A stretch of DNA of 64,000 nt from Candidatus Ancillula glyptotermitis. GTDB taxonomy: Bacteria > Actinomycetota > Actinomycetes > Actinomycetales > Bifidobacteriaceae. The DNA is taken from contig JAIRWY010000055.1 of assembly GCA_031268675.1 (NCBI GenBank), positions 10,155 to 74,154 of the forward strand, in the 5' to 3' direction. Shown one piece after another: positions 18,001 through 39,000 of this stretch (position 1 is its first letter; each line of letters opens with the position of its first letter). The notes under the pieces are model-generated. The model was given only the letters and a program-made list of their open reading frames with translations, was not told the DNA's origin and ran no database searches. A program made the position numbers and the translations under genes.

Positions 18001-21000
18001 CTTATACAAATTCTGGTAATACCAATGTGCAGAAGATTTCCAGGTTCTTTGGAATTGGGCAAATGCTAGGACACAATAATCTAAGTAATGCATCAGCTAG
18101 ATATTGGTCTTCTATTGCTGGAACTAATGCGGGTACTGCAAGTAGTGGTGATAAGTTACTATTTGATGGTGTTTTTGAAACTGATAAGCAAACAACTGGA
18201 AGCTGTGATGCTGTTGATTCTACACTTGTATACGGGACGCGATCGATAAATAAATGCGGATATAGTGTTGCTTCAGATGCGGCGGATTATGGTATAAGTG
18301 GAAGCACAAACAACAAAATTAATGCTGCTGGTAATTATAAGAGCCTCCTAAATGACAACATCAGCGGTGTTGTGCCAGATGCGTTGATGAAGACGAGCAG
18401 TTTTTATAAAGCAGCAGGTTATGACTTCAACTTCAAGTTTGATGATCCTGCATATCGACCAACATGGGTAATGCCTGCAGAAGGTCAAGGTTATCCACGC
18501 CTTGCATGGGAAGGTTCTGGTGTTTCAAGCAACCTTGGAAATCTTGCTGTAATGACGCGAGTGCTAGGAAATGCAGATGCAGCAGCGGCGTTCGTTGCCA
18601 AGTTCAAGTTCCACGGAGATGCGGGAGTTACTTCTGCCTCAGATTTTGCTAGTCCTGCAGATTTCAAGCCAAGTTTCTTGAGAAGTGGCACTTACCGAGT
18701 TGAAACCACCACAGATGATGGTCAAGGCGGTGAAACAACAGAAGTTACTGGAACTGGCGGAAATGGAACTTCGCAGAATCCATTTGAAGTTGCAAATGTT
18801 GTAGATTTAGATCATATGCGGTATTTCACAGGTACAATCAACAGCGGTGCTCATTTCAAACTAACTGCAGATATTGATACAACTGCAAATGGAGTGCTAG
18901 AAAATGCAGATGATGACACTGTGGCTGGTCTGGACGCTTTGAGCACATATAACAGCTACTTGGATTTTGCTACCGCAGATCTTGGTCCTCTCGCGGTCTC
19001 GCTGTTTTATGGGCATCTTGATGGTATCAAGGACCCGAATACACCACAACTTGGCAAGTACAAGATTACCTTCAAACAAGTGCGAAAAGCGGATACTACG
19101 GCTGTTTATAAGAATGCAATCAAGAGAAATCTTAATCCACGTCTGGTTGAAGGTCTATTTGGCGCGGTTGCGGTGGGAGCATCTATTTCCAATATAGATT
19201 TAGACGCGAAAATTGAAGATGATGGATATTTTGTTGTTGCTCCGAAGAACACTATTAGCAATACGTATGATAGTGTTGGTGCATTAGTCGGAACTATTGG
19301 TAAATCAGTGGCAGTGGATAGCAATGCGGAAGCAACTAGTGGAAATATTACAATTAGCGGTGTGTCTGCAAAAGTTGATATCAATTCTTCTAGGGCAGTT
19401 GTTGGCGGGCTCGTGGGAAGAACATCATCTGGCGGTGTTAAGTTTACACTAGAAGATTCATTTGTTTCTGGTTCGGTCATAAACAAGGGGTACAAGGATG
19501 ATCCTGTGTATGCATCAGATATGAGATGTCTTGCTGGTGGTGTAATTGGGCAGATGGTAGGTAAACAGATTGCTGAAATCACAACTTCTGGCTTTGATGA
19601 TGAGGCAAATGGCGAGGTTGGTTGTAAGACTGGAACAGATTATGTTGCGAACTTTAGTAGACTAGGAGCTGGTGGATTTGTGGGATCTATTGAACCTGGC
19701 GCAGTTGCTGGTTTTGATATACAACTAAAGCGCAATTTTGCAACTGCAAAGGAAATTACAGCACCTTTTTCACTTGGTGGTTTTGTTGGAGCTGTTTATG
19801 CTCCGACTGCAGTAGGCACTCTTTCAGTAGTTGAAAATTATTCTGGCAAAAAAGTAACTTCCACTTCGCATCAGGAAACGAACGGCACAACGTTGAAGGT
19901 TTGGGGTAACGGTCAGCAGAATACAGGTCCTGGAATTGGTGGTTTTGCTGGAGTATTTAGTTTTGGAAGTCTAAAGTATAACTATTCTAATTTAGGCAAA
20001 ATAGAGTCTCAAGTGCTACAAGCTAATAATACAGCAAATACTTCTGCAACGCCAACTAAAACTTGGTGGGCATCAACTGGTGGATTCGTGGGCGCTTTAA
20101 ATTCGACTACATCTTATATAACAAATGTTGAAAATAACTATTCGTTGACAAAAGAAGTTGAAACAGCAGTGTATGGCACTAAGACGAACTCTGGCGTTAA
20201 TGTGGGTACTGAAACATCATTTGCAGCAGGTTTTGCTGGTATAGTCGGTTCTGGTGCAGGTTTTGCTGGTGGAACAGTTGCGAATAATTATACTACAAGT
20301 GTGACAAAGGTGAAGACTATGGTTGATAATGCAGTAATTCCTGGTGCGCCTGTATTTGGTTGCTATTATAGCTGTTATAGTACTTCGGATGATACTGCAT
20401 CTGAAAGTGTCTACCCAAGTGTTGATTTAGTTCATGACAATGTGGGATATTATGATGATACTGTTACTCCTAATCTCAATAGCAAGACCCAAAAGCCTAG
20501 TAATACTGAGACTCCTGATATTGACAGCTTAAAGCCTGTAGTTGGAAGTAAAGTTGTCCGCATAGCATACCGAAAACTTGATGAAATGCAAAGAACTGAC
20601 ACATATATTATCTTGAACTACAAATTTGGTGCTTTGCTTGCAGGAACTTCCTCATCTCCATGGCAGAAGAATGATGGATTTAACCAGAACTTGCCGTACC
20701 TCTACTGGCAAGATCTGGGGAATTTCAAGCCAGTTAGTTGCAGAGGCATTTCTTTTGAGCAGTTCAAAGAATTTTATCCAGGTTTGATTGCAGGAACAGA
20801 AGGAGAATCACCGCAGAGGATGGCATATGAGAACTGGGAAAGACAAACTGCGGTGCCTGGAGAATCTTGGAAAAATCCGTGCGTTGTGGAGACTATTGCG
20901 GACTTGAACGTGATGAAACTCTACACAGGTGTTCAATCTGCAAAGAAATGGAAGTTGATGAGTGATATCAACATCGGTTCTGAGGTCTGGCAATCAATTG

Positions 21001-24000
21001 GAGATTACCACAATTCTTCAGAGTCTAGTTTCTGGGGCGATTTTGACGGTTGCAAGGTGTGGAAAGTGCTTCCAGATGATGATGGTATTACGGATCCAGA
21101 GTGTGTAGATTCTGATGGCAATACAGATGAGAACCAGGCAAAGCGCTATACTATTTCAGATCTTACCATCAAGAATACACTAATTCCTGGAATTGGCTTG
21201 TTCGGAAGTGTGTATAATTCTAAACTCACCAACTTTAATGTGACTGTGAAGGATTTCAGAGCAACTAAAGCAAGAGCTGGTATTGTGGTTGGAAGAGCGG
21301 CAGGATTGCAAGCCAAAAACATCAGCGTCAAACTAGCAGCTGATTATAATCCAGAAGTAAATGATGTTTCTTGTACTCTTAATGATGGTGTTAAGCAGTC
21401 GAAGCTAAGTGCTGATACTACTACTGCTTATTGCGGTGGATTTTTGGGAAGCGTGATTTATGGTAGTAGTAACCGTCATATTAAGACTAGTATAAGTAAT
21501 ATTCAACTCGGAACTGATACTGCAAAAATACCACTGAATTACCCAATTGACCAAAGCGTTGAAGGCATCGGCGGTTTTATTGGAACTATTCAAGCTAAGA
21601 CTAGTGATAGTGTAGATATTGATAGTGTAGATGTATATGCAGATGTTAAATTTGGAACTTCATTAACGGATGGTTATAAACGTATTGGAGGATTCGTTGG
21701 ACAGGCTTATGGAGCGGTCAATATTAACAACTCTCATCACGTAGGAGAGGTAAAGGGATCAGAAAATGTTGGAGGATTTGCTGGAATGCTAACTGCGGAT
21801 GCATTTTCAAGTGGCGATGGTGCTGGCGCTCCAAAGATAACAAATTCTTCGCATATCGGTAATGTTAATATGGCAAATGGAGGTGGTGGATTTGCTGGAT
21901 CTTTCAGAGGGTCAACTGCAAATTCGGTAGTTATTGACAATTGCAAGAGTGAAAATAGCCAAGTTGTTGTGAATGCACTTTATAAAGACATTGGTGTTGG
22001 CGGATTTGTTGGAAATGCAAACTTTGCGGAAATTAAGAATTCACATGCAAACAACATTCAAATTAAAGTTACTAGTAATCGGTTGATTCCAACAAGTGGC
22101 GCATATCGGTATAGCATTGGTGGTTTTGCTGGGATTATGGGCGTTAATAATTATACTTATACCACTTATCCTGATGGTGATACTGGCGTAGTTGTTAATT
22201 CTGGTGAAGTTAATATAATCGGTTCATCTTCGTCTGGTTCAATTTCGGCTATTGACAATTTAGCAGGTCCGATTGGTTTAGATTATATTAGTACAACTGA
22301 TAACTCAAATACATGTGTAGTTGGTGCTAAAGATGCAAATGGCAAGTATACATATACTTGTACAATTGGCACTACTGCTGTAACTGGTAATTATATTCCA
22401 ATGCTTACCGAAGGTGGTTTTGTCGGGTATTGGAGTGCACCAGCAGGTTCTATTATGGATAGTTACACGACAACTGATGTTACTCACAATGCTGGACTTG
22501 TGAACACTAGTTATAACACATTTACACTTGGCTCTTTAGTTTATCTTTATGATTCAGTTGGTGGTTTTGCTGGTCAGATTAGATGGGCAGCTGTTTCTGA
22601 TAGTAATCTGAAAAAATCCGAGAGTCCAGATACTTTAATAATTGAGAATTCCTCTGCATCTGGAACGGTTAATGGCTCTAACCAGAGTATTGTTGAAAGT
22701 GGATTTGTCGGTTTTATGTTTAAGGCATCAGATGCAGTTCCTACCTCAGGCAAAGCAATTGATATTAGCCATGTCTTTACCTCTTCACCTCTTGGTAATA
22801 CTGGTAAATATTCCTCGCATTTGGTTGCTGTCACGGATTTAAGGTATGAAAAAGCGTCTGGAGATCCATACTCTCAATTTAGAGATTCTTTATATACTGC
22901 TGATGTAAATGACACTAAAAATGTTGTTTCTGCAACTTATAATAATAATAATACAACAGCAAATAATTGTACAAGCAGTACTTATGGCTATGTTGCTGCA
23001 ACTGGCATGGTTGACAAGGATAGTGGAGCGCTTGATGAAACTACTACTAATCTGCAAAGAACTGGTGATATTAACCAAGGTAGTGCTGTATGCACCAGAG
23101 TCATTGGAGGCGTTCTTAACAACCACGGTGTAACTGCAGATGAGTTAAGGTCTGGAACTCCTTTGCAAGCACTTAACTGGGACACTTCTTATTCACTCGC
23201 GGATGCTGAAAATGCAAGCAATGTGGAAAAAATGCCAACATGGTATATTGACCCCACATTTGCATCTATTCCAAAACCGTCTGCGGCTCTAACTAGCGAA
23301 GAAAAAGCAGCTATCACAGCAGAGAATGCTACTTCTGCGGTAAATCCACTTAAGGGCGTGCATGAAGTTGCAGATATTGACGGAAATGGTAATGCAGGTT
23401 ATGAAATCAGAGACCTCCAAGAACTTTCCAATTTGCGCTACTTCTTGAACGACAAAGAGCCGAATCAAAATAAGAAGTTCAAGCTTTCAACTGATTTTGA
23501 CCAAAACAAGGGAAGAACTGCAGGTGATGTGAACGCATGGATTAACTCGTTCCCAGAAAGTTCTGTGGCTAGGACTATTGGCTGGTCCCCAATTGGAGCG
23601 GGAGGAACTCAAAACAACCTCTCAATGACTAGTTGTTCGCCAACTCCAGGTGCCGCAGTTGCTGCTAATGCTGCTTGTTTTGCAAATGACCTAGAGGGTA
23701 ATGCTTCCACCAAGTTGAAGGACAAGGCGTTTTCAGGTTCAGTTGATTTTGCAGGCAAAAGTTTAACCAACTTCTGGCTAGAGCGTCCGATTCTGCGAGA
23801 TTTTGCATGGCTCAAAGTTGGCAATAACTACCAAGGTCTATTTGGTGCAACTCTTGGAGGTGCATTCTCTAATCTGGACTTGACGCTCAAAGAGGCAGAT
23901 ACAACTGGTCATCATGGTGGTGTTCGCGGTGGTTCAAATACAGGTGCATTTGCGGGCGCGATGGTGCATCCAGAATCTATCACAAATATCCACATCAAGG

Positions 24001-27000
24001 AGTCTACATCTGCTCTTGGGAGCGAGAAGTTAGCACGGCTCGCGGGAGTTGTGGGCGGTTTTGCGGAAGTCAAGAACACGGGTAGTGATGAGTATGACAT
24101 GGCACTTTCTAGTGCGCAGGATTCGGCTAATAGCACTGCACTTTCATATGGAGTTGGAGGATTAACAGGTAGTTTATTTGGAGATGGTGCAAAACCAACT
24201 GTTCTAAATGGCATCAAGTCTGATGTTAGTGTATATGCACCATCTGGAGATAGAGTTGCAGGTCTTGTTGGTGCTGGATTCTCTATGGTCATGGGTAGTG
24301 CGAATTCTGATGCAAATACAGGTGATCCAACTGATTCTGTAATCATCAACAGCGGTAAATCTTCAAGTATCACAGTTACTGGTGAGCGCTCTATTGGCGG
24401 TGTGCTTGGCTGGGGCGGTGGAGTCACCAATATGCAAGGCGTTGTTTCAAATGTGAAGATAAATAGCTCGATGCAGGAATACACAGCTGTAAATATGGCA
24501 AAAGTAACTGGCAGAGGCGGATCTGGCGGACTAGTTGGTGCATTAGACTACTCTCCTGTTGGTGCTGCTTGTAAGACTGTTGAAGATGAAACTCCAGACT
24601 GTGTGAACAACCAGATAGCCCTAATTAGTAGAGATGACAAGGATCTTGAAGTTCCAGATTCAAATGGTTTCTTCATCACCAATTCAAAAACAACTGGTGC
24701 TATTACAGGTGCAGAAAGTGCTGGAGGTTTAGTTGGTTATTCTAATTCAGGAGAAGCGCAGAGTGTGATTATAAAAGGTTCTGTGGCTTCTGGAGATGTT
24801 TCATATGACAACGAAAAGCGAGCAGGCATATCTGGTGTGGCTCCGCAGAATATATCCTTAGGCGGTTTAATTGGTGCGGTTTTCCATACATCAAGATCTG
24901 CTGGCGATGATGACAATTCCACGAGTTCTGGTTTAGTGACTATTTCAGATTCAGAAGCTTCAGGAAATGTTATAGTTACAAATAGACAAGCTTTTGTTGC
25001 TACTTCTTATGCTTTCACTGGTGGATTTATTGGTGAAGTTGGAAAACGAAATACTTCTTATACAGCAAATACTGGATTAAAAAACTTGAGCATTTTGAAC
25101 TCCACTGCTAAAGGAGATGTTATATATACTGATACGGTAACTGCCAACAAGACATTTGCAACTGGTACAAGTACTTATACTTCAAATGAATGGAAAGCAT
25201 CTGGCGGTTTTATCGGGGCTATTTTACTAGGCAATAGCGTACATATTGCTGATAATAAAGCTCAAGGCAGTGTTTCTTCTGATATGGGCTATGTGGGTGG
25301 ATTCATCGGATATATCAACTCTAGGACTCAAGTTGCTGGTTCTGAGATACTAGTTGAGCGAAATTATGCTGGAAGTAGACCTTCTGAAGATGGGCGTGGA
25401 GAAAATACAGTTACTGGTTGGTATGCTGTGGGTGGATTTATCGGTGCGGCTATTGCAAAAACAACTGCAAACTTGAGCAATGTAACACTAACTCAGAACT
25501 ATTCAAACGTGAAGTATGTATACCAGACACTAGCAGCAACCGCAGCTATTGGCAATACACTTAAAGCATCTGGGGGTTTTGTGGGTCTTGCAATAAGTGA
25601 GAATTCGGCTAATAATCCACAGTTGAATATAACGGACAGTTATACAACTGCTAATGTCTTTGCTGCGGCTTCAAATACTTCTGCTATTGGTAACTATGTG
25701 GGTGGATTCATCGGAAGAGCAAGTAATACTAGTATATCTTCAGCGCTAACTAATGGTATTTCTGCTAGTGGTATGACTGGTAGTAAAAATAATGGTTCAC
25801 TTGTTACTCGTATATATGCTAGTGGTTGGGTTAGAGAAAGAATGACTGCAGATAATGTTACTAATTTTGCAATCACAGATTTAGGTGCTCCAGCTCAAAA
25901 TACAGGAATTGCAGGTAATACATTCTACGGTAATGACTACTTCACTCCAACTGATGGTTATTCAAATATGATGGTTTATGACTCTGCACGCAATTCACTG
26001 ACCTCCGATAATAGAGCCAATGCTGTGCAAACTCATAATGGAATAAACAACGGTGTTAGCACGCCTATAGCAAGTGCTTCAAAGGCAGATCCTGGTCATG
26101 CAATGTATTTACGTACACGAGCAAACTTCAGGAACTTTGACTTCACCACAAAGCCTGGAATTTCTGGCACATGGAAGATTATGCAAAACGGTATTACCAA
26201 CGCAAATGGAACTAGTACACTTACAGATCATTATAATAACTTCGGCATGCCTATGCTCGGATGGCAAAAATCTGGTGAAACTTATACTTGTAGATCTGAA
26301 TATGATACTATAACAACTGGGCTTGATGAGGATCATATCACCAAGATTACTATTGAAACTAGGGATATAGATGAAGCATCTCATGCAGTAAAAGGTTCTG
26401 CTCAAAATCCTTGTCTTGTTGGAGATCCGTATGAATTAGACAACGTCCGCTATTTTACAGGTAATCCAGATATCAACTTCAAAGTTGACCGTGATATTGA
26501 CTTGAGCGGGTATTTAGCAGTGCGTGCAGGAGCTACTTGGAATGCTCAAGATGCAAAATTTGAAGGCGGTAAATATACTACAACCACTAGTGGTAGAGAT
26601 GCATTCAAAGCAGCAAGTGGAACCACTGAGGGCTGGCATCCAATTGGAACTAACGAATCCACATCTGAGAAGAACTCCACCAGATTCCGCGGGCATTTTG
26701 ACGGAGGCGGTTTCAATATTACAGGTTTCTGGGTGAACCAGACCGTTCTTGGTGATGTAACCGATCCAGTTGCGGCAAGTCTGGTGACTCCTATAAGTGA
26801 GCAAGTTTCTTCAGTTGGTCTTTTTGGCGCTGCTCAAGATGCTGAATTTAAGAACATCTCAATTGAACTATACCGCCCTGAAACTTTTGGGGAATATACA
26901 TCACATTCTGTATGTACTGCTGGAAGTGATGTTACATCTGGCGGTGAACACGAGTCTCCAATAGTTGAGTGTTTTGCAGGTGCTGTTAGTGCTGGTTCTA

Positions 27001-30000
27001 GGTATGGTATTGGTGAAGGAAATATGAATGTTGGTTCTCTAGTTGGTGCATTATATGCTGGAACCACGCCATCTGTCATCAAGAATGTGCATGTGCACTC
27101 AAAAGATCCGCGTTCATATGTGGGCCTTTATGGAGCAGCGAATGCAGCAGGCGGAGGTTTAATTGGCTATCTTGAAGGTAATACAACTGTTTCCCAGTCC
27201 TCTTCAGATGCAAAAGTTCAAGAATTTGAAGGTGCTGAGAATGCTAGTTCTAGTGTAGGTGGTTTTATTGGTCATCTACCTGCCTCAAGTGTCAACGCTT
27301 TGACTAAAAACAACACCGTTATTTCCGAGAACTATGTAACTGGTTCTGTAACATCTAAATCTAAAGGAGTCGTTTCACTGGGCGGATTTATCGGCAAGAT
27401 TGGTATTTCTGCTGCTGGTTCTGCTGAAACTGCTACCACTCCAACTATTGGCGGAGCAACTGGCAAGATTAACAACAACTATGTAGTTTCTGATCTTTAT
27501 CCTAGTTGTAGTGGCGAATGCGATTATACTGGTGGATTTGCAGGCCTTGTATATCCAGCATCTCTTAAAGATTCAACTGCAACTTTGGAGATCAACCAGA
27601 ATGCTTCATATTCTAAGATTTTCACGCCTGGAGGTACTGATGAACTTCATAGTGGTGCATTTATGTGGGAGACAGCAAATTCTAACCCAGATGATGCTAC
27701 AAAACGAAGAGTTGCTATAAGCGGCAACTTTGCTATTAAGAGCGAGGATGTGAATGCTGGACTTCCTGTTTGGGGAGACACGTATGCGAAGATGGATCCA
27801 AAACCAGCTGGAGGAACTGCCGACGACCCTTATGCGAAGACTTTCGACAACGGTATTGTTGGACTATCAGAAGCAGAACTCAAGACTTTCAACATCTTGT
27901 CTGACTACAACTGGGATGTTTCTTGGACCTTGAATGGCTACGGTGGCACTGCAACTGCCACACATCCGAACTGGTATGCAGACCTCACTAGACATGCATA
28001 CCCTATGCTTGGATGGCAAGTGGATAGAGCATCTGGAGACGAACAGTACTCTTCTTGGTCTTCTGTGGGCACTTCTGAGCAGAAGAATCGCTACAACTCG
28101 GAAAATTGGGGTGTTCCTAGTACTCTCAGCACTAATCTAGCACATGATCCTAATATGTACAAGTTGGACTTGCGAGGAACTGGGACTGTTGATGATCCGT
28201 TCTTGATTTATACAGCAAAAGACCTCAACGCACTACATCTGCTTACCAAGAACCTTGGCGTAAACTACAAGCTTGCAAATAACTTGGACGTTACTGATTA
28301 TATGAAGAATGATATGGCAGATGACGGCGGTGGATTTGAACCAATTGGCGGTATGATGAGCGAGCAAACTGCATTTGCAGGTTCATTTGACGGCGGTGGT
28401 TATACTTTGAACGGCATCTGGATGAACTGGCCGAACTCCAAATATGCAGGTCTTTTTGGCAACGTGGTCACTGGATCTGAGATCAAGAACCTAAATCTTG
28501 TACTTGATGATAGCAAGGGCGGAATCGTTGGGGGAACTTATGTGGGCGGTATTATCGGAAGCTCTCAAAAAAGCGATAAGCTCTATTCGCAGAACTTTAG
28601 TTATAAAAATGCTGCTCAGACATTTACTGCTCCTGAATCTGGAGATTACTCTTTAGAAGTTTGGGGCGCTCAGGGGGGACCTTCTTATACTTTGCCTTCA
28701 GGTTCTTGTACTACTAGTAGTGTTGTAACATCGGCTAGTTTGGGTGGTAATGGTGGTTATGCAAAAGGTAAAATACATTTAACTGCTGGTCAAAACCTTT
28801 ATGTGTATACTGGTCAAAACCCTACTGCTAGAGCCACTTCAACAACATTTAATGGTGGTGCACGATCGGCGGAAGATTGGACTTGTGGCAAAAAAGGCGG
28901 TGGAGCTGGCGGTGGAGCAAGCGATATTCGAGTTGACAATTCTGTTTGGAACTCAACTACTGCTAATAAGGGGCTATATTCAAGAATTATCGTTGCTGGC
29001 GGTGGCGGTGGTCATGCATCAGATGCTTCTCCTGTTGGTGGTGTTGGTGGTGGTACTAGCGGTGGTGCTGGTGGTGATTATAATAGTAATTATTATGCAG
29101 GTAGAGGCGGTAGTCAAACTGGTGGCGGACAGTTCGGTTATAGTACTTCAAGTATAGCTGATTCAGCTGGTAATTATGGCACATTTGGTATTGGTGGTAT
29201 GGCATGTGACAAAGATGATGCAAATTATTATGGTTATACGTGTCCCGCGGCAACGTCAACATATTTTGGCGGTGGCGGTGGCGGTGGCTGGTATGGTGGC
29301 GGTGGCGGTGCTTCTTATGGTGATTCTACTGGTGGTGGTGGTGGTTCAGGCTATGTTCTGACTAATACTTCAAACAAGCCAACAACAGGCTACTTATCAA
29401 ACTGGCAAGATTATCAACTTACTGATCCTGTACTTACTGATGGTGCAAATAGTATGCCAAATACTGCTGGCACTGGAAATGAAACTGGACATGCGGGCAA
29501 TGGTGCTGCTAGAATTATCCAACTTTCAGCAGATGCTGTTAGAAAGACCACAGTTTCAAATTCATCTGTAAAAGGAAAAGTAGGCCAAGTTAATGGAAGT
29601 GGAATTGTCACTAGTGATGTTGGAGTTGGTGGATTTGCAGGTCAGGTAATTGGTGATATTAAAATTACTAATTCATGGACTTCTGGCTCTGTTTCTTCTC
29701 AAAACACTTCTTCTTCTTCTTCTTCTTCTGACGCTATTAAAGTTGGAGTTGGTGGATTTGCTGGTATTGTTCGAGATGGAAGTTCTAGCATTTCATCATC
29801 ATATTCACTTTCAAGTGTTTATGCACCAAATTCTTTGAACGTGGGTGGATTTGCTGGTATAATAAATCCTGCTGGAGATAAAACTACTGCAACTTTCAAT
29901 AGTATTGATATTAGCAAGACATTTGCAAACGGATCTGTTGAAGGAAGTAACCGAACTGGTGGATTCGTTGGCTATCTGCCAAAACGAGATGAGAGTAATT

Positions 30001-33000
30001 ATACTACTGGTGCATCAGGAACTTCTGTAATTGAACAAAGTTATTCTACAGGTCAGGTCAAAGTGCATGGAGATACTTCATTTGCAGGCGGTTTTGCAGG
30101 TGAATTCTCATCTGGAGTGGTTAGAAATTCATATACATGGAGTAATGTCATCAGCACTTCCACTTCTTTTGGAGTTTCAACGGATACAATTTCAGGAAGA
30201 GGAACTGGAGCAACATTAGGCGGTTTTGCAGGTCAGGTTGATGGTGTTATTGGTTCTGCTGGCTCAAATGCTATTGGAGCGACTAATGGTCCCACAGCGT
30301 TTGAGAAGGTCTATTCTAAGGGCTCAATTAAACTTGAAAGTAATCCAGATCAGAAGATTTATACATCTGGTTATTTTGCAGGCTATATTGGGGGTGTTCT
30401 TTCTACAAGCGGACTTAGCAGTGACTCTGTTCGGTTCACACACATCTACTATGATACTCAAACTGCTGCAAATATCGTGTATCCGCAAGGTCTTGGCACA
30501 AACAACTGGTATAATGGAGCAACTCATGCAACTGGACTAGAACCAGCAACCGCAGGTCGTAAAACCCAGAACCTTAAGAGCCAGGCAAACTACCTGCAAA
30601 GAGCCACAACAGCAGAAAACTGGAACTTCATGGGTACTCAGGATGCTGCTGGTAATCGCTTGACAGAGCCAATCTGGTTCATAAATGAAGGCATTTCATA
30701 TCCGATGTTGACTTGGCAAGACTCCAAAATCCCAGAACTTCAGTGTGATTCAGGTGCAGGTACGCAAACTGATCCGTGCATTGTGGTGAACGCAAAACAG
30801 CTGGATTCTATCCACGACTGGGTGGGATTTGCAAATGCGGGCATCTACTGGAGGCTTGGCGCAGACATTGACCTTGGAACTTACCTAGATGATTCTATAT
30901 TCAGGGACCAAAATGGTAATTTAACCGCGCAGTATAGAGAGGCAGAAGCTTCTGGAGACTGGTCTACTTATCCAAACCGTGATATTAACGGATATCCTGT
31001 AAATGCTGCTGGTCATGTGCCTGATGTGAGAGGATGGTCTCCGGTAGGAACTGGACCTGACGAGCCTGCAAGTGCTGGCAATAATACGTATCCAGAGTCT
31101 GCTCTTGCAAGTAATCCGACAATCTTCTACGGGCATTTTGACGGTGGTGGTCATACAATTAAGGGTCTTTGGAGTCAGAGAGAAGATCAAACAATGGTTG
31201 GTCTATTCGGTTTTGCGCGAGATGCTGAAATCAAGAACTTTGAGTTGACCATCGGCAAAAAGGGAGTCTACGGACAAGCCAGAGTTGGTGGAGTCATTGG
31301 ACTTTATCAGCATTATAATGAAGGTACAGACAAGAAACTTAAGGAGACAAATCCTGTTCAATCTATAACTGTACGCCCTGAAGATGGTTGCCCTGAAGAT
31401 GAGTGCCAAGTTGGTGTTTCAACCACTAAAGTGGCTTCTACTAACTCATTAGTTGGTACTCATATTGGAGGCGTGATTGGTGAAGCGCATACGTATGTTG
31501 CAAGTGGTGTATATTGTATTCCGTCAGGTACTACTGACAGTGCTAATTATTACGAAAAATGCCCAAGTTCTGAAGCGGCTACTGCTGTTAGTAATTTTGC
31601 GGCAATTGATGACCACCTTTTGAGACAAGTTGCAAAGTATGGTATGCGAACAACTTTCTCTGGATTGGTTTCTCATGTTGATGTTGGAAAAACACTTGGA
31701 ATGACAGATGCAAATACAAAAGCATCGGCAGTTGGAGGCGTGATTGGAGGAGCACACAATGGCGTAACTGTTTTACAGAGTTCTTCTAGTGGCAAGATAA
31801 TTGGAAAACAGCAAGTTGGTGGAATTGTTGGTCAGTATTCTGCATTCTCACGTACTAGTGGTGATTCTTACTACTACTACTACTATCGTTTTACAAGTTA
31901 TAGATTATACTTAACTATCCAAAATTCGTATTCTACAGGAAGAATTTATTCCACTTCTGGTGACGCAAATAAAACTGGTTTTGCTGTTGGTGGAATAATT
32001 GGCAATTACGATGTTGGTAGTGGATCGGTACATTCGGTTAGGACAAAAGATGTAGTACTCCTAGATAATGTGTATTCTACAGCTGAGGTTGGAGTCATAA
32101 GCTCAGTAACACCTTCAAGTACTAGTAATGAATACAAAATTGGCGGTTTAATTGGGTATCTATGTAGTGGTGCAACAACAACAGAAACTAACGGTGGTGG
32201 CGGTATGAAAGTTTGGAGATCATACTTTGGCGGAAAGATTACTGATAACGTGGCTGGTCGTTCAGGTGGTTTAATTGGGTATGTTTACAAAACAAGTAAT
32301 AGTGATAGTTATCCATTTGTATCACGATATATGTTTGCAAATGCTGGTAACGATGCATATACATTTTTCAATGAAGACAGTGGAGTCACATATCCTGTTT
32401 TTTATTCCGATGGTGTTACTAGTACTAGTTTCTCAGACAGCTATTTTAGTGGTTTTTCCAGTGCGATTAAGCGGACAACTCTTCAATTACAGACAGCATC
32501 TACATATACAAATAAGTGGAACACAACTGGTATTTGGGGAATAGATACTGTGACTGATAACCGCCCGAAGATATATGATTATGTGGGTAATTCTGGTTGG
32601 ATTGATAATCCTCAACTTGGACAAACAATTGGAATTTCTATGCCGTATTTGCGCAGTTTCAACAACCATATAGTTGTAACTCCTGAGCAGTATTATACAG
32701 ATTATGATAATACCAACCACATTCAGGCAAGTCCACCAGATGATGCTCCTAAGGGCACATGTTCATCTGCTGCTGTTTTGAGCGAGAATGAATGCACTGC
32801 ACTAGGTTATACTTGGGACAGGGCTAAGCGAGAAGCACCTGAAAATCCGACGTTCACAATTTCAGGCACAGGAGCAAAGCAGGCGCGTGAAAATATCGGA
32901 AGCGGTTCACATTTTGACATCATCAAGGGTTCTGGTACAGATCCAAATGGAGTGCTTGCATATGAAGAAAACGGACCTAATGAGCAGATTGTAAATGCTG

Positions 33001-36000
33001 GAACTTATTCTATTGCTGGCGGAAGTTTATTTACTAGAAAAGCACCAACAACAACTAACGGTTTGACGACCAACTCTAAGGCGAATGCATACCAAAGTTA
33101 TGTCTTGGCAAATAAGAACCCGTATTATCAGGCTAGTTTTGATTTCACCAAGTTCTACGAGGTCAAGCAAATTCCTGCAAAACTTGAAATTAAGACGTTC
33201 TTCGCTCCTGCCTCGCCAACTAAAGCGTGGAAATGGTCAGATCCTGAAAATTCTACAACTTCTAAATATGAAGATGAACTTACTGTCTTGGTGAAGGTTA
33301 CTGGAGCTGGAGATAAACCAGTTGAGAATGGGCACATCAAGTTGTACTTAGATTCAACTGAAGAAACAGGCGTTCTAAACGGTGGAAATCCACTGAGCCT
33401 CTATCAAAGTGCATCAGATGCTTCCAGTAGTGTTGAGGGGGCTGAGACAGGCGTTATACGGTATAAAATAACTGAGGCAGAGGCACTGAACAAGCTGAAA
33501 ACTGGAGAGCATACAATCTACGCGAAGTATTTTGACAAGGGTGAAAATGCTACTGGAACTTACTACAGCCAGAAAGATGCTCAAAAGACTTCTATGGCAT
33601 CTACCACCGCTTGGGAGACTTCTTCAAACTACTTTGATACTGAAACTGCAAATGATACTCCTTCACTTCCTCTGAACATCTCGGTTGCGAAAGCTGTTAA
33701 GCCTATAACCGTTTCTGAACTAAAAGGTAGTACTTCTACTGATAATGACCGTTATAATCAGGAGAATATTAAAGTTACTCTACCAGATGGAACTGATCCA
33801 AATTCAGATCCAGAGGGCGAAAAGTATCCAGATTGGTATTCTAGTTGTCAAGTTACTCTAACTAATACGGTTGGTTCGCACTGCCCAGAAACAAATTCAT
33901 CATATCTTGGAGATAAATCTGAACTACATGTTAAGTTCGGAGATAGCAACGTCAGTCTTGGGCATCTTTTTGGCGGTAAGAAGGCCTCAGGCACGCTGAC
34001 TTATGAGGCAGGGGTTGATTCTAGTCTAGTTGAGCGAGCATTAGTTGAAATGTATCCAGAGCTTGCAACTTCTCCTGCTTTAGCTCAGCAAGTTGCTAAT
34101 TACACTGCAGAAGCAAAGCTCGCAGTTACTGTGAATTCAAACGGCGAACTTAGTTTCCATAGATCCACATCGTTCGTATTTTCAAATCCGCATTATGATA
34201 TTCCTGTTCATGTTGTTGTGAAAAGATTAGGGGATGATAACTACGATGAAGAAAGTGCAAGTGTTGATGTTAGTGTTGACCGCAAGGAGCTCACTGTTAC
34301 TGGTGCAATTGCAGATAGGCAGTATAATGGTAAAACTAATGCGGACTGGGCAGGTGGAAGGTATCCATCTTTACAAGGTCTAGTTGCAGGAACTGACCAA
34401 GTTGAAATAAATCAGCCAGTTCCAACATTTGTTGATCCTGCAACTGGAGATGGCAAGCACGTTTATCTTGCACAAACTGGCAAAGAGCCTGAATTGGCAT
34501 TCAACAGGAGTACATATGAACTATCAGGTGATCCAACTGGTGATTTAGCATACAACGCCTTCTTAATCTGGGGCAAAGATGCCCATAACTACATGGTAAC
34601 TCAGCCAAGTGCATTTAGCGCCTCGATTTTCCAGAATATGATACCTTCGGGCGAGGTGTGCGCTAGTAGGCCTGCAAATGAGGTTGCTGTATTTAAGGAT
34701 CCAGCTGGTTCACCTGCGGGTCAAGTGTTAGTAAACGGCTGGGCGAAGGATGAGTTCAAAGTGCAAGCAACAAGTCGCTATTTACTCTCTAAGACAAATA
34801 CAGCTGAAGGTTCTTGGACGGATACTTTGACTTGGGATCAGCAGACTTTCAATAATACTACGGATGCAATTTTCTACGGGAAGGAAAAAACTACTGGAAA
34901 TATCACGGCTTCTACTAATATTACTGGTTATTCATCTTCAACTTGTAATAAAGTACAGTATGGACTAGACAGGGGGCTTCCAAAAGGACAGATTACAGTA
35001 AAAGAAGATACTGGAAATCCATGGTCTGATGCTTTGCACTTCTTGAGTTTTGGGCTGTTCTTCAAGAACGAGACTAAATTCCACTTTGAGTATTCAGATC
35101 CGATTGTTCCTGAGCTTGTGGATGCAGAAGGAGGACAACATCCAGCAACTGAAAACCAGTCTGGTATTGATTATGCATCTGGTAAATCTGGTTACTATAT
35201 TGATACATCAGGTGTAGCTTTGACTTCAGAAAGTATTTCAAATCCAGCATTAACTTGGACTCAGTTTGAGGGTTCTTCAAGTACAATGGATTATACAATT
35301 GGGGCAAATGACAAGGGCAAGTATATCGCCTATATGAAGTTAACTGATAAAGCTGGAAATACCGTCTATATCGGTTCAGATGGCGTGATGAAGTTCGTAG
35401 ATGGAACTGGAACAACCATTGACACCACATTTACACATGGAACTTCAGATGTTGTAACTCAAAATGCAATTGTGGACAGTGCAAATGATATTGATTCTGT
35501 CACCATGATCACAGCTACTGATACTACTTGTACTGGCGAGGTAAATCAAGAAGTATGTGATTTAACCGCAGCTGCAAAGGGGCAGAATAAAAAAGCGACA
35601 ACGGTTGCAAAATCTGATCAGAACTATCGCTTGAGTAATGGAAATTTGGCGTTAACCACTGAATATTTGAACACATTGTCAATAGGAACTTATCGCTTCT
35701 TCGTCTATGTTAATCCGCTCAAAGTTGCAAACTACTGGACATATGACCAGTACAATATGGGCAACCACACAAAAACTAGAGCAGATGAAGAAATTCCACG
35801 TATTTACTCGTTCACCGTCAGAGTGTATAGAAATCCTGATGAGCCTAAAGATCTACAAGTTATGCAGTTACTAAACGGTTCAAATGAGGGTGAGGTTTCT
35901 GCAGTAATCACGTGGAAGGGTGCTCAGGCTCAAGAACTTGCAAACAAGTCAAATACTATTCTTAAGTATAATTTGCAAATGAAGACTGTTGAAGCCGAGC

Positions 36001-39000
36001 AATGGACTGATATTTCAGCTCTAATACCGCCATGTACATCTAGTTGTGATGCTCAAACTGACTTCCGCCTTGAAATTTATAATACTGAGGAATATGGTTC
36101 TGGTAGTCAAATTACACTAAATTCTGGAACTGATTATGTCTTCAGAGTGCGTGCAAATAACGAGATTCAAGGTACTGGGTATCCTAGTGCTGTAAATGAC
36201 GGAGTTGGAGATGGACCTTGGGCAACCACGAGTTTTAAGACTTTCTCCGCACCTCCTGCCCCAAGTATTTCTGCTTATCAGCCAGATCCGTATGCTGAAG
36301 GTAGTCCATATTATGGTCAGAACTGGGACAGGAAGATTAAAGCAACTTGGAAAGAGGTGTATGTGGCTGCACAGGGCACAAGTCTTACCTACAATGTGGA
36401 GATTCAAAGATCAGATACTGCAAATCCAGATCAGTGGTATATAGCTAGAGACTCTAGCAATAACGAGTGCGTGAATATTGAAGGTACTCTAGCAAATCTT
36501 GACTGGGATAAAACAGAGCGTAGTTGCAACGAGATTGCTGGCTGGTATGATACTACAACACGTCAATTAGAGCGTGGAGTTAAGTATAACTTGCGCGTGT
36601 ATGCGGTTGTAAATGGAACTTCATCTGAAAAAACAGCAACAGTATCGCGAACAACTATTGAAATTGGCAACTTACCGAGCAAGCCTCAGAATATTCAAGC
36701 TCAGCAGACCACCAACTTGACTGCAGATTTGACTTGGGCACCTTCGTATAATCCCACGAACAATTATAATGTCTACAACTTGGAATATTGCGATGGCGGT
36801 CCAAAAAATCTTGAAGCAGTAAGTTGTAGTACTGGTTCTTGGATTACTGGTGCAGAAAATGTGCATCTCAATGATATTACAACAACCTCTGTGCAACTTG
36901 GAGCCGCTCAAGGTGCAGTTCAAGCTACACTAGAAGCAGATCACAAGTACTTCTTCAGAGTAACTGGGCATAACTTGGCAGGACTTTCACAAGTTTCTGA
37001 TGCGGGCGAGTTGATTATTTCAGGACCTCCAACAACTCCTGTTTCGCCAAATATCAGCCAGACTTGGGCTCAGAACCACGTTGAGGCAGATGCTTTGAAA
37101 CTAGACTGGTATGGTAATAATTCTGCAGGTGAATTCCCGCTAGACTACACTGTGCGTTATGCTCCAGTTGCCCAAAAAGGTGCAGATCCATCAACTGTTG
37201 ATCAAAGCGCGTGGAAGACAGCATCAGTTAAAGATGATTTGACTGCAAGCGGTTGTAGGACCGAATCTGGAGTTGTATTAGAATACTACAATAAGAGTGA
37301 CTGTCTAGGATATGGAGGATCTGGCGCTGTTTGGTTCAGCAATGGAGATGGTAATCCGCTGGCTTTGAGCATTGATTACTATGACCCAGGCAGGATCTAC
37401 ATCTTCCAAACTAGTGCTGTTTCAACCGCTGGAGCTTCCGCTTGGGGTGCGCCTTCTTACTTCCTAACTGCAGGTCAAGGTAAAGCACCGACTTGGGCTA
37501 TAGCACCTACTGAGGTTGTAGATAATGCATATGCTGGCGGAGTAAGTATGTCCTGGCAAAATGATGCTCCTGTGCCTTCGGATGCTAGGGATGATACATA
37601 TACTTACGAAATTTGCTACGGTGAGTTGACAAACTACATCTCGAACAACTCGCAGCCACCAACTGCAGAGTGTGACAGTCCTTGGAAATCTAAGAAGATT
37701 GATCAGACTAGTTATACAATTGACCAGACTTCAGAAACTGTGCATGCACTTTTGACTGATGATGATTTAACTCCAGGAGGAACTTATGCGTTCTTCGTGC
37801 GTGGAGTATCTATGGCAAAAACTGGACATTTCTCAGATGCTAAGATTTTGACAGTTTCTTCGACTCCTCCAGCGGCAAATATAGTTGCTACACAGACTGG
37901 TGAAGGTGAACTAGATTTGAACTGGCAAGCAACTGATGAATATACTGCTATTTCTGGCTTGAAGTACACATTGCAGTTCTACGAAGAAGGAGCAAGCCAG
38001 TGGGAAGATATTCCTAGTGCAAACATCAGCAGTTTCAACCCTGAGCAGAAGACAGCACATCTAACGGGCTTAGATCCAGAGCATGTTGGCAAGACACTAG
38101 TTATACGTATTGTCTCCACAAATGTGCGAGGTATTTCCACACCAGATTCTTCTTGGGCAGGTGAAAATCCACAAGATTGCCCTGGTTCAAAACTTGTAAC
38201 TCTATTAGCTAGACCTGAAACTCCTCGCGAATTCCAAGTTGTTTCACAAGCAACACCTTATTCAATGAGCTTCTTCTGGGCATACAATGCGGCTGATATT
38301 GCTAAATACGGTGTTCGTGGAAATGATATTCCAGCAGGTCAAGCAAACTTCCAGTTAGCGTATAGAATACTTACAGAAGATGAAAAGAATGCTTATAAAG
38401 CATATAGAGCAGATCGAGCAAAGCCTGCAGACCAGCGAGAAAATCTTCCACAACCTGATTATAGTTCAGGAGATGCAACTTCTTGGATGGTTGCTGCAAC
38501 AACTAATTCTGTTAACAGCGAAGTTGATGGTTTGGAAATTGGTGCATATTATCGCTTCCGCCTGATAACCAACAACATATCGGGTAGTTCAAATGGAACA
38601 GATCGGTTCGCTCCTGCATATATAGTTCAACCAACTGCATCAGTTCCAGATGCTCCTAATTTCATCCGTCAAGAAGGAATTGAGAATCCTCGTCAAGCAA
38701 CTCCAACTGAAGGTCATCCATCAAATGTTGGTTTTATGGAGCTTCGTTGGGAGTCCCTTGGTTCAGGAATTAGTTATGAGGTTCGCCAGTTGGATATGGA
38801 TGAATGCGGAGACTGGGTAATTCCAAGACGTGGAGATAATGGTGTTCAGTATCCTGCAAGACCTCAACTCTGCGGAAAAGATGACTTCGTTGAGCGCCTT
38901 CTACAAGAAAATGCTTCAGGAGATGAACATCTATCTGTAAATACTACTATTTCAACATCAAATCCAGACTTGGCTAAATACAACGGTTCTAATCTGTGGG

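What the first reader, a model, noticed from the sequence alone, without database searches (positions are those of the whole stretch)
28584..29530. A single ALK/LTK-type glycine-rich domain nested inside one beta-helix module
Only module M13 is interrupted. About 315 aa sit between its head and its first rung, with poly-Gly runs set in a fixed scaffold. The scaffold reads FTAPESGDYSLEVWGAQGG, GGGAGGGASDIRV, RIIVAGGGGGHASD, FGGGGGGGWYGGGGGASYG, GGGGGSGYV and GNGAARII. This block order matches the glycine-rich domain family known from the ligand-binding ectodomain of the animal receptor kinases ALK and LTK, where the hexa-glycine runs form polyglycine-II helices. Bacterial members of the family have no known function. 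Among more than 21,000 residues this is the only non-repetitive domain I saw, so it is the best candidate for a specific binding or effector site.
Basis: partly seen in the sequence, partly recalled or inferred. Interest (0 to 1): 0.75.

Follow-up and report, generated by a model that had tools for sequence, protein, structure and literature searches.

The report
Glycine-rich binding domain inside giant fibre
One repeat unit of a giant bacterial surface-fibre gene (over 21,000 codons) is interrupted by a single, well-supported copy of the glycine-rich domain first known from the human ALK receptor; the domain is common in bacteria and phages, but I did not find this nested placement anywhere else.

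Summary
Nt 28584-29528 encode a 315-aa domain that matches Pfam PF12810 (ALK_LTK_GRD) at E=1.7e-38, 133 bits against a 24.5-bit cut-off, covering model positions 6-241 of 243. With a family alignment, AlphaFold2 gives pLDDT 88.6 and pTM 0.90. The top 21 PDB fold matches are all ALK, LTK or SCD-2 ectodomains. It is the only copy in the window.

The domain sits in a loop just after the first GLUG-type rung of module 13. In 37 GLUG homologues, the head and tail of the module align and the domain columns are almost empty. The flanks model as a beta-helix close to the IgA1-protease N-domain.

The domain itself is not rare. There are 2,749 cluster representatives at E<=1e-3, including 5,000-7,600-aa surface proteins with up to 9 copies, and many phage virion and tail-fibre proteins. 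In none of those examined is it nested in a GLUG module.

Most likely function (inferred): a laterally displayed adhesin head. Conserved polyglycine stems would carry lineage-specific loops, as proposed for phage fibre tips.

This is a new member of a known family in an unusual, nested context. The source organism was not identified.

The parts
3..63998 (+). One uninterrupted reading frame (21,332 codons) that runs off both ends of the window. It is the giant host gene.
   Evidence: 0 stops in + frame 3, against 895-2,326 in the other frames. No competing ORF of 150 aa or more near the domain.
28158..30749 (+). Module M13 (aa 9386-10249), made of head, inserted GRD, rungs and C-terminal cap.
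   Evidence: jackhmmer places heads at aa 9386 and 10250. Blastp shows its head and tail are homologous to the other modules.
28158..28583 (+). M13 head (aa 9386-9527). It contains GTGTVDDPFLIYTAKDL...FDGGGYTLNG...GLFG...IKNLNL...YVGGIIGSSQKSDKL and ends in the first GLUG-like rung.
   Evidence: Aligns to GLUG-motif proteins. AF2 pLDDT is 77-96.
28584..29528 (+). ALK/LTK-type glycine-rich domain (aa 9528-9842, 315 aa), Pfam PF12810.
   Evidence: E=1.7e-38, 133 bits. Profile against PDB hits ALK and SCD-2. AF2 pLDDT 88.6, pTM 0.90. Foldseek top 21 hits are ALK, LTK or SCD-2.
28584..28997 (+). N-terminal part of the GRD (domain residues 1-138). Its beta-strands are read as contributing to the TNF-like sandwich, and it holds the conserved motifs YxLEVWGAQGG, GGxGGY and GGGASDIR.
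   Evidence: DSSP strands at 2-6, 12-15, 20-27, 59-66, 71-75, 113-116 and 134-138. Invariant columns W27 G28 A29 G31 G55 G57 G58 Y59.
28998..29402 (+). Glycine-rich core (domain residues 139-273, 35% Gly). It has almost no alpha or beta structure assigned yet is mostly modelled with high confidence. This is the presumed polyglycine-II bundle.
   Evidence: DSSP is almost entirely '-' over this stretch, with block pLDDT 80-98 except residues 211-230. Gly fraction. Poly-G runs at aa 9666, 9756, 9765 and 9777.
29403..29528 (+). C-terminal strands of the GRD (domain residues 274-315, ...ETGHAGNGAARIIQLS), read as closing the TNF-like sandwich.
   Evidence: Strands 280-285, 290-292, 299-301 and 308-313, pLDDT 95-98. 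Conserved G302, G305, G307 and I311.
28689..28727 (+). Lineage-specific loop 1 (domain residues 36-48, TLPSGSCTTSSVV, includes Cys42).
   Evidence: Fewer than 50% of 42 homologues have residues in these columns.
28935..28961 (+). Lineage-specific loop 2 (domain residues 118-126, DNSVWNSTT).
   Evidence: Low column occupancy in alignment A1.
29223..29261 (+). Lineage-specific loop 3 (domain residues 214-226, NYYGYTCPAATST, includes Cys220). It overlaps the only segment with pLDDT below 50 (residues 211-219).
29529..30749 (+). M13 rungs (repeated GGFAG/GGFVG turns) and C-terminal cap (...ENWNF...EPIWFINEGISYPMLTWQ).
   Evidence: Homologous to the tails of the other modules and to PF07581 proteins over 97-99% of the GRD-less module. 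AF2 gives regular short strands, with most 10-residue blocks above pLDDT 80.

Best explanation
Nt 28584-29528 encode a genuine, folded member of the PF12810 glycine-rich domain family. The fold is a TNF-like beta-sandwich carrying a bundle of glycine stretches.

The domain has been inserted, in frame, into the turn that follows the first GLUG rung of the 13th parallel beta-helix module of a giant fibre protein of more than 21,332 aa, most likely secreted or on the cell surface. Its N- and C-terminal strands are inferred to lie side by side in the sandwich. On that reading, the helix continues on either side and the domain projects sideways from the shaft.

The most likely role is a ligand- or surface-binding (adhesin) head. 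The invariant glycine motifs would build a rigid scaffold. The four loops found only in this copy, with four non-conserved cysteines, would form the specificity-determining surface. This is what has been proposed for the TNF-like plus glycine-rich tips of phage tail fibres, and it parallels ligand capture by ALK/LTK.

Shown here: domain identity, uniqueness in the window, the insertion point, the folded state, and the GLUG-type nature of the host module.

Inferred: polyglycine-II geometry, sideways display, extracellular location, and the binding function.
For: Identity:
- Pfam 133 bits, E=1.7e-38, nearly full model coverage.
- A family profile finds only ALK and SCD-2 chains in the PDB, E=3e-6 to 1e-3.
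- The AF2 model has pLDDT 88.6 and pTM 0.90.
- Its 21 best PDB matches are all ALK, LTK or SCD-2 glycine-rich/TNF-like ectodomains, E=1e-8 to 7e-6, probability 1.00.

Insertion:
- The module with the GRD removed (549 aa) aligns over 97-99% of its length to PF07581 GLUG proteins.
- In a 38-sequence alignment, homologue occupancy is 0.7-0.99 over the head and 0.23-0.93 over the tail. It is about 0 over domain columns 217-456 apart from one spurious block (0.41), and 0.16-0.42 over columns 145-216.
- The rung spacing is 361 aa here and at most 133 aa elsewhere.

Host fold:
- With the GLUG-only alignment, AF2 models the flanks mostly at pLDDT 80-96 with regular short strands, and pTM is 0.69 although the insert is unmodelled.
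- The best PDB matches are IgA1-protease beta-helix domains, probability 0.98-1.00, followed by tailspikes and pectin lyases.
- GLUG Pfam hits pass the cut-off in M7 and M12.

Native origin:
- GC3 is 0.20 against 0.268+/-0.047 for the gene, the 8th percentile.

Functional analogy:
- 112 BFVD viral models match at E<=1e-3, including cyanophage virion and tail-fibre proteins, with TM up to 0.68.
- In cyanophage Pam3 tail fibre gp24, the TNF-like plus glycine-rich domains are assigned to host-receptor recognition. The glycine stems are conserved and the distal tips hypervariable, and the authors note similarity to C. elegans ALK (PMC9608196).
- Relatives are fused to pilin N-methyl, T9SS, DUF5011, Flg_new, Big_2 and fimbrillin domains. 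These are all surface contexts.
- Conserved positions are almost all glycines, and variable positions cluster in four loops.
Against: - No binding partner, and no experiment on any bacterial member, was found. The five matching PHROG families are all 'unknown function'.
- TM-scores to ALK/LTK are only 0.35-0.45.
- The match to the one functionally interpreted phage fibre (Pam3, 7ypx) is weak, E=0.04, probability 0.38.
- The gene's ends are outside the window, so secretion or anchoring is unproven, and further copies may exist.
- The Foldseek support for a beta-helix host is statistically weak, E=0.035-0.055.
- M13's own rungs do not reach the Pfam Glug threshold.
Confidence: 0.6

Rival explanations
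1. Self-association module. The TNF-like/glycine-rich domain mediates lateral oligomerisation, for example trimerisation as in TNF and Pam3 gp24 or dimerisation as in ligand-bound ALK. It would bundle several giant fibres or dock a partner subunit, rather than recognise a foreign surface.
For: TNF-like domains oligomerise. [quoted passage not shown] There is a single copy per 21,000 or more residues, which would fit a registration point.
Against: [quoted passage not shown] Relatives often carry 4-9 copies in series on one chain, which suits multivalent binding better than a defined oligomer.
Confidence: 0.15
2. Structural decoration only. The domain is a rigid, protease-resistant knob or spacer with no specific ligand, kept because it is neutral or stabilises the fibre.
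For: No function is known for any bacterial member. The other modules tolerate unassigned inserts of about 100-150 aa.
Against: The family core is strongly conserved (32 invariant columns across 43 sequences) while loops are variable, which is the usual signature of a scaffold presenting a recognition surface. The domain recurs in phage virion and fibre proteins.
Confidence: 0.15
3. Flat-surface binder of a non-biological or periodic substrate such as ice, mineral or a crystalline polysaccharide, acting through the planar polyglycine-II face as in the snow-flea antifreeze protein.
For: Polyglycine-II bundles are the ice-binding scaffold of snow-flea antifreeze protein (own knowledge; listed as a Gly-rich bundle in PMC13243192). 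One ice-binding protein appears far down the fold-match list for the M13 model, at E=2.2.
Against: That match is to the beta-helix flanks and is not significant. No fold match of the GRD model to an antifreeze protein appears among the 50 best PDB hits. The environment of the organism is unknown.
Confidence: 0.04
4. Assembly chimera. The 945-nt block was joined into the repeat array by mis-assembly and is not part of this gene.
For: Highly repetitive giant genes are prone to mis-assembly. No orthologue could be found to confirm the junctions.
Against: The block is in frame at both junctions. It interrupts the module exactly at an inter-rung turn, and both halves of one module flank it. GC3 lies within the gene's range. 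The modules are only about 20-30% identical to one another, so there is little repeat-driven opportunity for a false join.
Confidence: 0.03

Closest known systems
Pfam PF12810 (ALK_LTK_GRD): bacterial and phage 'glycine rich' proteins
   Same: Full-length HMM match. 38-54% identity to bacterial and phage members. Same motif order, with invariant W27-G28-A29-x-G31, GGxGGY, GGGxxD, R-x-IVAGGGG, GGGGGWYGG and GGGGSGYV. Viral models superpose with TM 0.57-0.68.
   Different: In the relatives examined, the domain is a stand-alone bead. It occurs singly in 270-550-aa proteins, or as 2-9 serial copies in proteins of up to 7,663 aa. Here it is nested inside a GLUG beta-helix module. This copy also has four private loop insertions and four private cysteines.
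Ligand-binding ectodomain of the animal receptor kinases ALK, LTK and C. elegans SCD-2 (PDB 7LS0, 7N00, 7NWZ, 7NX0, 7NX1, 7LIR)
   Same: Same Pfam family. These are the only PDB chains hit by the family profile and all 21 top fold matches. ALK's glycine stretches form 14 polyproline-II-type helices (table in PMC13243192).
   Different: Only 15-20% identity and TM 0.35-0.45. There is no kinase, transmembrane segment, EGF-like module or ALKAL-type ligand context. The host is a prokaryotic fibre.
Tail fibre gp24 of cyanophage Pam3 (TNF-like plus glycine-rich tip) and the polyglycine tip of phage S16 gp38
   Same: These combine a TNF-like or beta-helical stem with a stacked glycine-motif lattice whose variable distal loops are proposed to bind the host receptor (PMC9608196). 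This is the best available working model for the mechanism.
   Different: The fold match of the window's domain to Pam3 gp24 is weak, E=0.04, probability 0.38. The phage domains are terminal tips of trimeric fibres, not internal insertions in a monomeric-looking beta-helix.
GLUG-motif beta-helix (Pfam PF07581; N-terminal domain of M26 IgA1 proteases, PDB 3N6Z, 6XJA, 7UVK)
   Same: The host module without the insert matches PF07581/PF05342 proteins. GLUG hits are above threshold in sister modules. The best fold matches of the flanks are IgA1-protease domains.
   Different: No peptidase domain is present. There are 14 or more modules in series. None of the GLUG homologues retrieved has an insert at this position.

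Membership tests
Pfam PF12810 ALK_LTK_GRD | Score above the curated gathering threshold, with near-complete model coverage | tested here: met
   133.4 bits against a 24.5-bit cut-off, E=1.7e-38, model positions 6-241 of 243.
Pfam PF12810 ALK_LTK_GRD | Conserved order of glycine motifs set in a fixed scaffold | tested here: met
Pfam PF12810 ALK_LTK_GRD | Fold of the solved members (TNF-like sandwich plus glycine-rich subdomain) | tested here: met
   AF2 pLDDT 88.6, pTM 0.90. All 21 Foldseek PDB hits with E<=1e-3 are ALK, LTK or SCD-2, probability 1.00, TM 0.35-0.45. The profile-against-PDB search hits only ALK and SCD-2.
Pfam PF12810 ALK_LTK_GRD | Glycine runs adopt polyglycine-II helices packed in a lattice | not testable with these tools
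   Model coordinates are not exposed. The indirect evidence is that residues 139-273 (35% Gly) have almost no alpha or beta structure assigned in DSSP, yet block pLDDT is 80-98 outside residues 211-230.
ALK/LTK receptor tyrosine kinases (as receptors) | Glycine-rich domain linked to an EGF-like module, a transmembrane helix and a tyrosine kinase, and binding ALKAL cytokines | tested here: not met
   Pfam scans of all 21,332 residues show no kinase or EGF domain. This is a bacterial-type giant ORF. It belongs to the domain family, not to the receptor family.
GLUG-motif parallel beta-helix module (PF07581) | GLUG motif hits above the Pfam threshold | tested here: inconclusive
   Above threshold in M7 (33.5 bits) and M12 (31.0 bits), below it in M4 and M10. 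No Glug hit was reported for the M13 segment itself. However, M13 minus the insert retrieves proteins pre-annotated with PF07581 at E down to 6.5e-36, and 'GLUG motif-containing protein' genes on plasmids.
GLUG-motif parallel beta-helix module (PF07581) | Right-handed beta-helix fold as in the IgA1-protease N-domain | tested here: inconclusive
   The flanks are modelled mostly at pLDDT 80-96 with regular short strands. The top PDB matches are 3N6Z, 6XJA and 7UVK with probability 0.98-1.00, but E is only 0.035-0.055. The rest of the list is parallel beta-helices at non-significant E.
Phage tail-fibre receptor-binding tip (Pam3 gp24 type) | Terminal position on a trimeric fibre, with fold similarity to gp24 | tested here: not met
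   The domain is internal, not terminal. The match to 7ypx_A has E=0.041, probability 0.38. The oligomeric state cannot be tested. The comparison is used as a mechanistic analogy only.

The most novel reading that the evidence does not exclude
The nested glycine-rich domain is the single specificity-determining 'warhead' of an otherwise repetitive fibre of more than 21,000 residues, from a lineage with no detectable relatives in the collections searched. Inserting a PF12810 domain into a beta-helix turn would then be a previously undescribed way of mounting this scaffold. Because it is a single excisable 315-aa unit, it could give the first experimental handle on what the thousands of bacterial and phage PF12810 domains bind. 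By extension, it could bear on the ancestry of the ALK/LTK ligand-binding domain.
Probability: 0.25. Interest if true: 0.6.

Novelty: new member of a known kind. Interest (0 to 1): 0.4.

Why it matters
PF12810 is known functionally only from the ALK/LTK cytokine receptors. This work shows 2,749 cluster representatives of it in prokaryotic and viral proteins, with no assigned function.

A single, cleanly delimited, confidently folding copy displayed on a giant fibre is a convenient construct for binding screens and structure work. It also gives a concrete example of how large repeat proteins acquire a specific functional head by domain insertion.

For annotation, the result is simple. The region is a correct PF12810 call inside a GLUG-type beta-helix module.

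Tried and rejected
1. Single-sequence phmmer of the domain against PDB sequences found nothing. A family profile was needed.
2. Finding the source organism or orthologues failed. Two scans of GTDB species genomes and two of JGI metagenomes gave no confirmed relative. The queries were M13 itself and an alignment of the 765-aa 3' super-repeats.
3. tblastn of the domain against GenBank phages gave no match, probably because the low-complexity filter masks the glycine runs. Against plasmids, only the module head matched, hitting GLUG proteins.
4. The word-indexed protein search lists only targets up to about 1.75 times the query length (552 aa for a 315-aa query, 961 aa for 549 aa). Its picture of 'only small proteins' is therefore an artefact. 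The exhaustive representative search corrected it.
5. I searched for the nested GLUG-GRD-GLUG arrangement elsewhere. None was found among 143 representative proteins. None was found among the best 120 hits to full M13, where maximum query coverage was 39% and no hit carried both PF07581 and PF12810.
6. MAFFT alignments mixing GLUG modules with GRD homologues put rungs onto the glycine runs and were not used. The full-module AF2 run used a GLUG-only alignment, so the insert was unmodelled there.
7. My local hmmsearch of a GRD profile against the intact 21,332-aa sequence reported no hit. I attribute this to whole-sequence bias correction. The chunked searches find the domain.
8. A first codon-usage calculation used a wrong frame downstream of the domain. 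It was redone, and only one search is used.
9. The original ALK structure papers are not in the held library, and one literature query was wasted on unrelated hits.
10. Recent horizontal acquisition was considered. GC3 is not an outlier, so there is no support for it.
Full report
**The sequence.** The whole 64-kb window is one open reading frame on the + strand. Frame 3 has 21,332 codons and no stop, while every other frame has 895-2,326 stops. The only ORFs of 150 aa or more are two antisense ones far from the region. Around the finding there are only short alternative-frame ORFs of at most 118 aa. Amino acid i is encoded by nt 3i to 3i+2. The last complete codon ends at 29528. The short DNA tandem repeats found here, such as (TGGCGG)n, are simply the coding of the glycine runs.

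**Is it the ALK/LTK glycine-rich domain?** Yes.
- hmmscan against Pfam gives one family, PF12810 ALK_LTK_GRD. The match has E=1.7e-38 and 133.4 bits against a 24.5-bit gathering cut-off, with residues 18-312 on model positions 6-241 of 243. NCBIfam has nothing relevant.
- A single-sequence search of PDB sequences is empty.
- A profile built from the domain plus 42 full-length homologues (A1) hits only C. elegans SCD-2 (E=3.2e-6) and seven human ALK constructs (E=3e-4 to 1e-3).
- With A1 as its alignment, AlphaFold2 gives mean pLDDT 88.6 and pTM 0.90. Beta-strands lie at both ends. A central stretch (residues 139-273, 35% Gly) has almost no alpha or beta structure assigned, yet block pLDDT is 80-98 apart from one loop at residues 211-230.
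- Foldseek against the PDB returns 21 hits at E<=1e-3. All are ALK, LTK or SCD-2 'GRD' or 'TG' ectodomains, with E=1.2e-8 to 7e-6, probability 1.00 and TM 0.35-0.45. They are followed by the mycobacteriophage Bxb1 tail tip (E=1.3e-3) and the cyanophage Pam3 fibre (E=0.04).

I could not measure the polyglycine-II backbone geometry, because coordinates are not returned. ALK's 14 such helices are documented (PMC13243192).

**Is it single and nested?** A phmmer self-search finds no second copy. All four runs of five or more glycines in 21,332 residues lie inside the domain. Pfam scans of the whole ORF in 5,000-aa pieces, and of each module separately, report PF12810 only here.

jackhmmer seeded with the M13 head finds a partial head at the start of the window and 14 complete heads. 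They start at aa 613, 1187, 1791, 2518, 3125, 3888, 4496, 5397, 6253, 6957, 7794, 8797, 9386 and 10250. Both the head and the tail of M13 are homologous to the other modules at 20-30% identity.

Counting GG[hydrophobic][hydrophobic]G rungs, the spacing across the domain is 361 aa, while all other inter-rung gaps are 9-133 aa. The junction reads ...GLFGNVVTGSEIKNLNLVLDDSKGGIVGGTYVGGIIGSSQKSDKL | GRD | ADAVRKTTVSNSSVKGKV...VGVGGFAGQ.... The insert therefore lies in the turn after a first GLUG-like rung.

The module with the insert deleted (549 aa) retrieves 190 proteins, nearly all pre-annotated with PF07581 (GLUG). Several also carry PF05342 (the N-domain of M26 peptidases) or T9SS sorting domains, and several cover 97-99% of the query. 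In a 38-sequence alignment, the 37 homologues occupy 0.70-0.99 of the head columns and 0.23-0.93 of the tail columns. They occupy about 0 of columns 217-456 apart from one spurious block (0.41), and 0.16-0.42 of columns 145-216.

AlphaFold2 on this GLUG-only alignment models the flanks mostly at pLDDT 80-96, with the regular short strands of a beta-helix. The insert, which has no alignment information there, is left at pLDDT 24-45 apart from two short stretches, and pTM is 0.69. The best PDB matches of that model are the Bacteroides ovatus putative IgA1 protease 3N6Z, S. pneumoniae IgA1 protease 6XJA and G. haemolysans 7UVK, with probability 0.98-1.00 but E only 0.035-0.055. Tailspikes and pectin lyases follow at non-significant E.

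GLUG itself passes the Pfam threshold in M7 and M12 and is just below it in M4 and M10. On plasmids, the M13 head matches genes annotated 'GLUG motif-containing protein'. I take the host module to be a GLUG-type beta-helix. The fold evidence is suggestive rather than strong.

**Is the insert native?** GC3 of the domain is 0.20. For 315-codon windows across the gene it is 0.268+/-0.047, which puts the domain at the 8th percentile. There is no compositional sign of recent transfer or chimerism. Its glycine codons are 88% GGT/GGC, the highest of any window (mean 0.62+/-0.09). Three of the four poly-G runs alternate GGC and GGT, while the fourth is all GGT.

**How common is the domain, and in what contexts?** The word-indexed search returned 1,426 hits. 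All carry PF12810 and are at most 552 aa long. Some are fused to prepilin N-methyl (PF07963), Flg_new (PF09479), T9SS (PF18962), DUF5011 (PF16403), Big_2, fn3 or fimbrillin domains. That tool appears to list only targets up to 1.75 times the query length.

The exhaustive search of 1.84 billion cluster representatives gives 2,749 proteins at E<=1e-3, 781 at E<=1e-10 and 53 at E<=1e-30. Its best hits are huge proteins (7,104, 6,991, 7,069, 7,093, 7,235 and 7,663 aa) at 37-54% identity. A local profile counts up to 9 full copies per protein. Names, where given, are 'hypothetical', 'glycine rich protein [Bacteriophage sp.]' or 'DUF5011 domain-containing protein [Candidatus Nomurabacteria]'. Taxa also include Bacilli, an alphaproteobacterial MAG and Blautia.

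Among viral models, 112 match at E<=1e-3. These include cyanophage virion-structural and tail-fibre proteins and Caulobacter phage proteins, with TM up to 0.68. The five matching PHROG families are all 'unknown function'.

None of the 143 representatives has the domain next to a GLUG head or flanked by rungs. Four of them (P0251, P0260, P0332, P0264) do carry GLUG modules, but these lie near residues 330 and 900, well apart from the GRDs, which start beyond residue 1,700. A search with the whole of M13 found no hit covering more than 39% of it, and none listing PF07581 together with PF12810. The nested arrangement is thus not seen elsewhere in what I could examine, though the search was not exhaustive.

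**Mechanism.** The conserved positions of the family are almost all glycines plus a few aromatic and aliphatic anchors. This copy has four private loop segments (residues 36-48, 118-126, 188-191 and 214-226) and four private cysteines at 42, 101, 208 and 220.

[quoted passage not shown] The glycine-rich lattice sits at its distal end, and less conserved polar tips are proposed to bind the host receptor. The authors note the similarity to C. elegans ALK (PMC9608196).

In TNF-type jelly rolls, the first and last strands are neighbours (established knowledge of the fold). That would let the domain sit in a helix turn with its glycine tip pointing away from the shaft.

I therefore favour a laterally displayed adhesin or ligand-binding head. 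This is consistent with the uniformly surface-type fusion partners of the family. It is an inference, and no bacterial member has been tested. Rivals are a self-association role, an inert structural knob, binding to a periodic surface such as ice, and an assembly artefact. Each is weighed in the rivals section.

**Context and limits.** Downstream of module 14, the protein switches to fn3/Ig-like arrays. The gene's ends, and so its signal and anchor sequences, lie outside the window. Four collection scans found no relative of the giant protein, so the organism is unknown, and I cannot say whether further GRD copies exist in the gene.

**Verdict.** The domain is a new member of a large, known but functionally uncharacterised family. 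The unusual features are its nested position in a GLUG beta-helix module and its singularity within a giant fibre. Interest is moderate.

Noticed in passing
window 1-64000 (+ frame 3): The entire window is one ORF of more than 21,332 codons, open at both ends. Four scans of GTDB species genomes and JGI metagenomes found no relative, so this giant gene has no detectable relatives in those collections.
   Followed up: partly
window 1839-33000: There are fourteen complete, strongly diverged (20-30% identity) GLUG-type beta-helix modules of 574-1,003 aa. Each has a head (G-x-G-T-x-x-DP-[FY]-x-I...FDG-x-G-x-x-I...GLFG) and ends in a W-x-F...IW-x-I...YP-x-L cap. A partial module precedes them at nt 3-1838.
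   Followed up: yes
window 3561-7553, 16191-18758, 30750-34000: Other modules carry smaller unassigned extras. M2 has an inter-rung gap of 133 aa and M3 has gaps of 130 and 115 aa. The stretch after the last rung is unusually long in M8 (398 aa) and M14 (445 aa). None has a Pfam match, so M13 is not the only module with non-rung material, only the one with by far the largest insert and the only recognisable one.
   Followed up: partly
window 57003-63902: The 3' end consists of super-repeats of about 765 aa, at aa 19001, 19773 and 20536, that are 48-57% identical to each other. This is much more similar than the beta-helix modules, and the repeats probably continue beyond the window.
   Followed up: partly
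window ~34000-64000: The second half of the protein is rich in fn3 and fn3-like domains. It also has a hit above the Pfam cut-off to the Ig_J_second domain of phage tip-attachment protein J (nt ~36840-36995, 34.8 bits against a 27-bit cut-off). A YDG domain hit falls just below its cut-off (nt ~34281-34475, 22.6 bits against 25).
   Followed up: no
window 28584-29528: Glycine codons in the domain are 88% GGT/GGC, against 62+/-9% in windows across the gene. Three of the four poly-G runs alternate GGC and GGT, which avoids long G homopolymers; the fourth (aa 9777) is all GGT. GGA is strongly avoided (9% against 34%).
   Followed up: partly
window 1-64000: GC skew on the coding strand is positive throughout. 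It falls from about 0.18 in the beta-helix half to about 0.05 in the fn3 half, while AT skew rises from about 0 to +0.05-0.12. This probably reflects amino-acid composition rather than replication.
   Followed up: no
proteins P0251, P0260, P0332, P0264: These four proteins of 4,000-5,100 aa combine two or three GLUG beta-helix modules near the N-terminus with 3-5 serial PF12810 domains. Two of them were read in full and have T9SS-like C-termini. They show that the two domain types co-occur in other lineages, but in series rather than nested.
   Followed up: partly
tool behaviour: the search for homologous proteins never listed a target longer than about 1.75 times the query (552 aa for 315, 961 aa for 549). 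Its length distributions should not be read as biology.
   Followed up: yes
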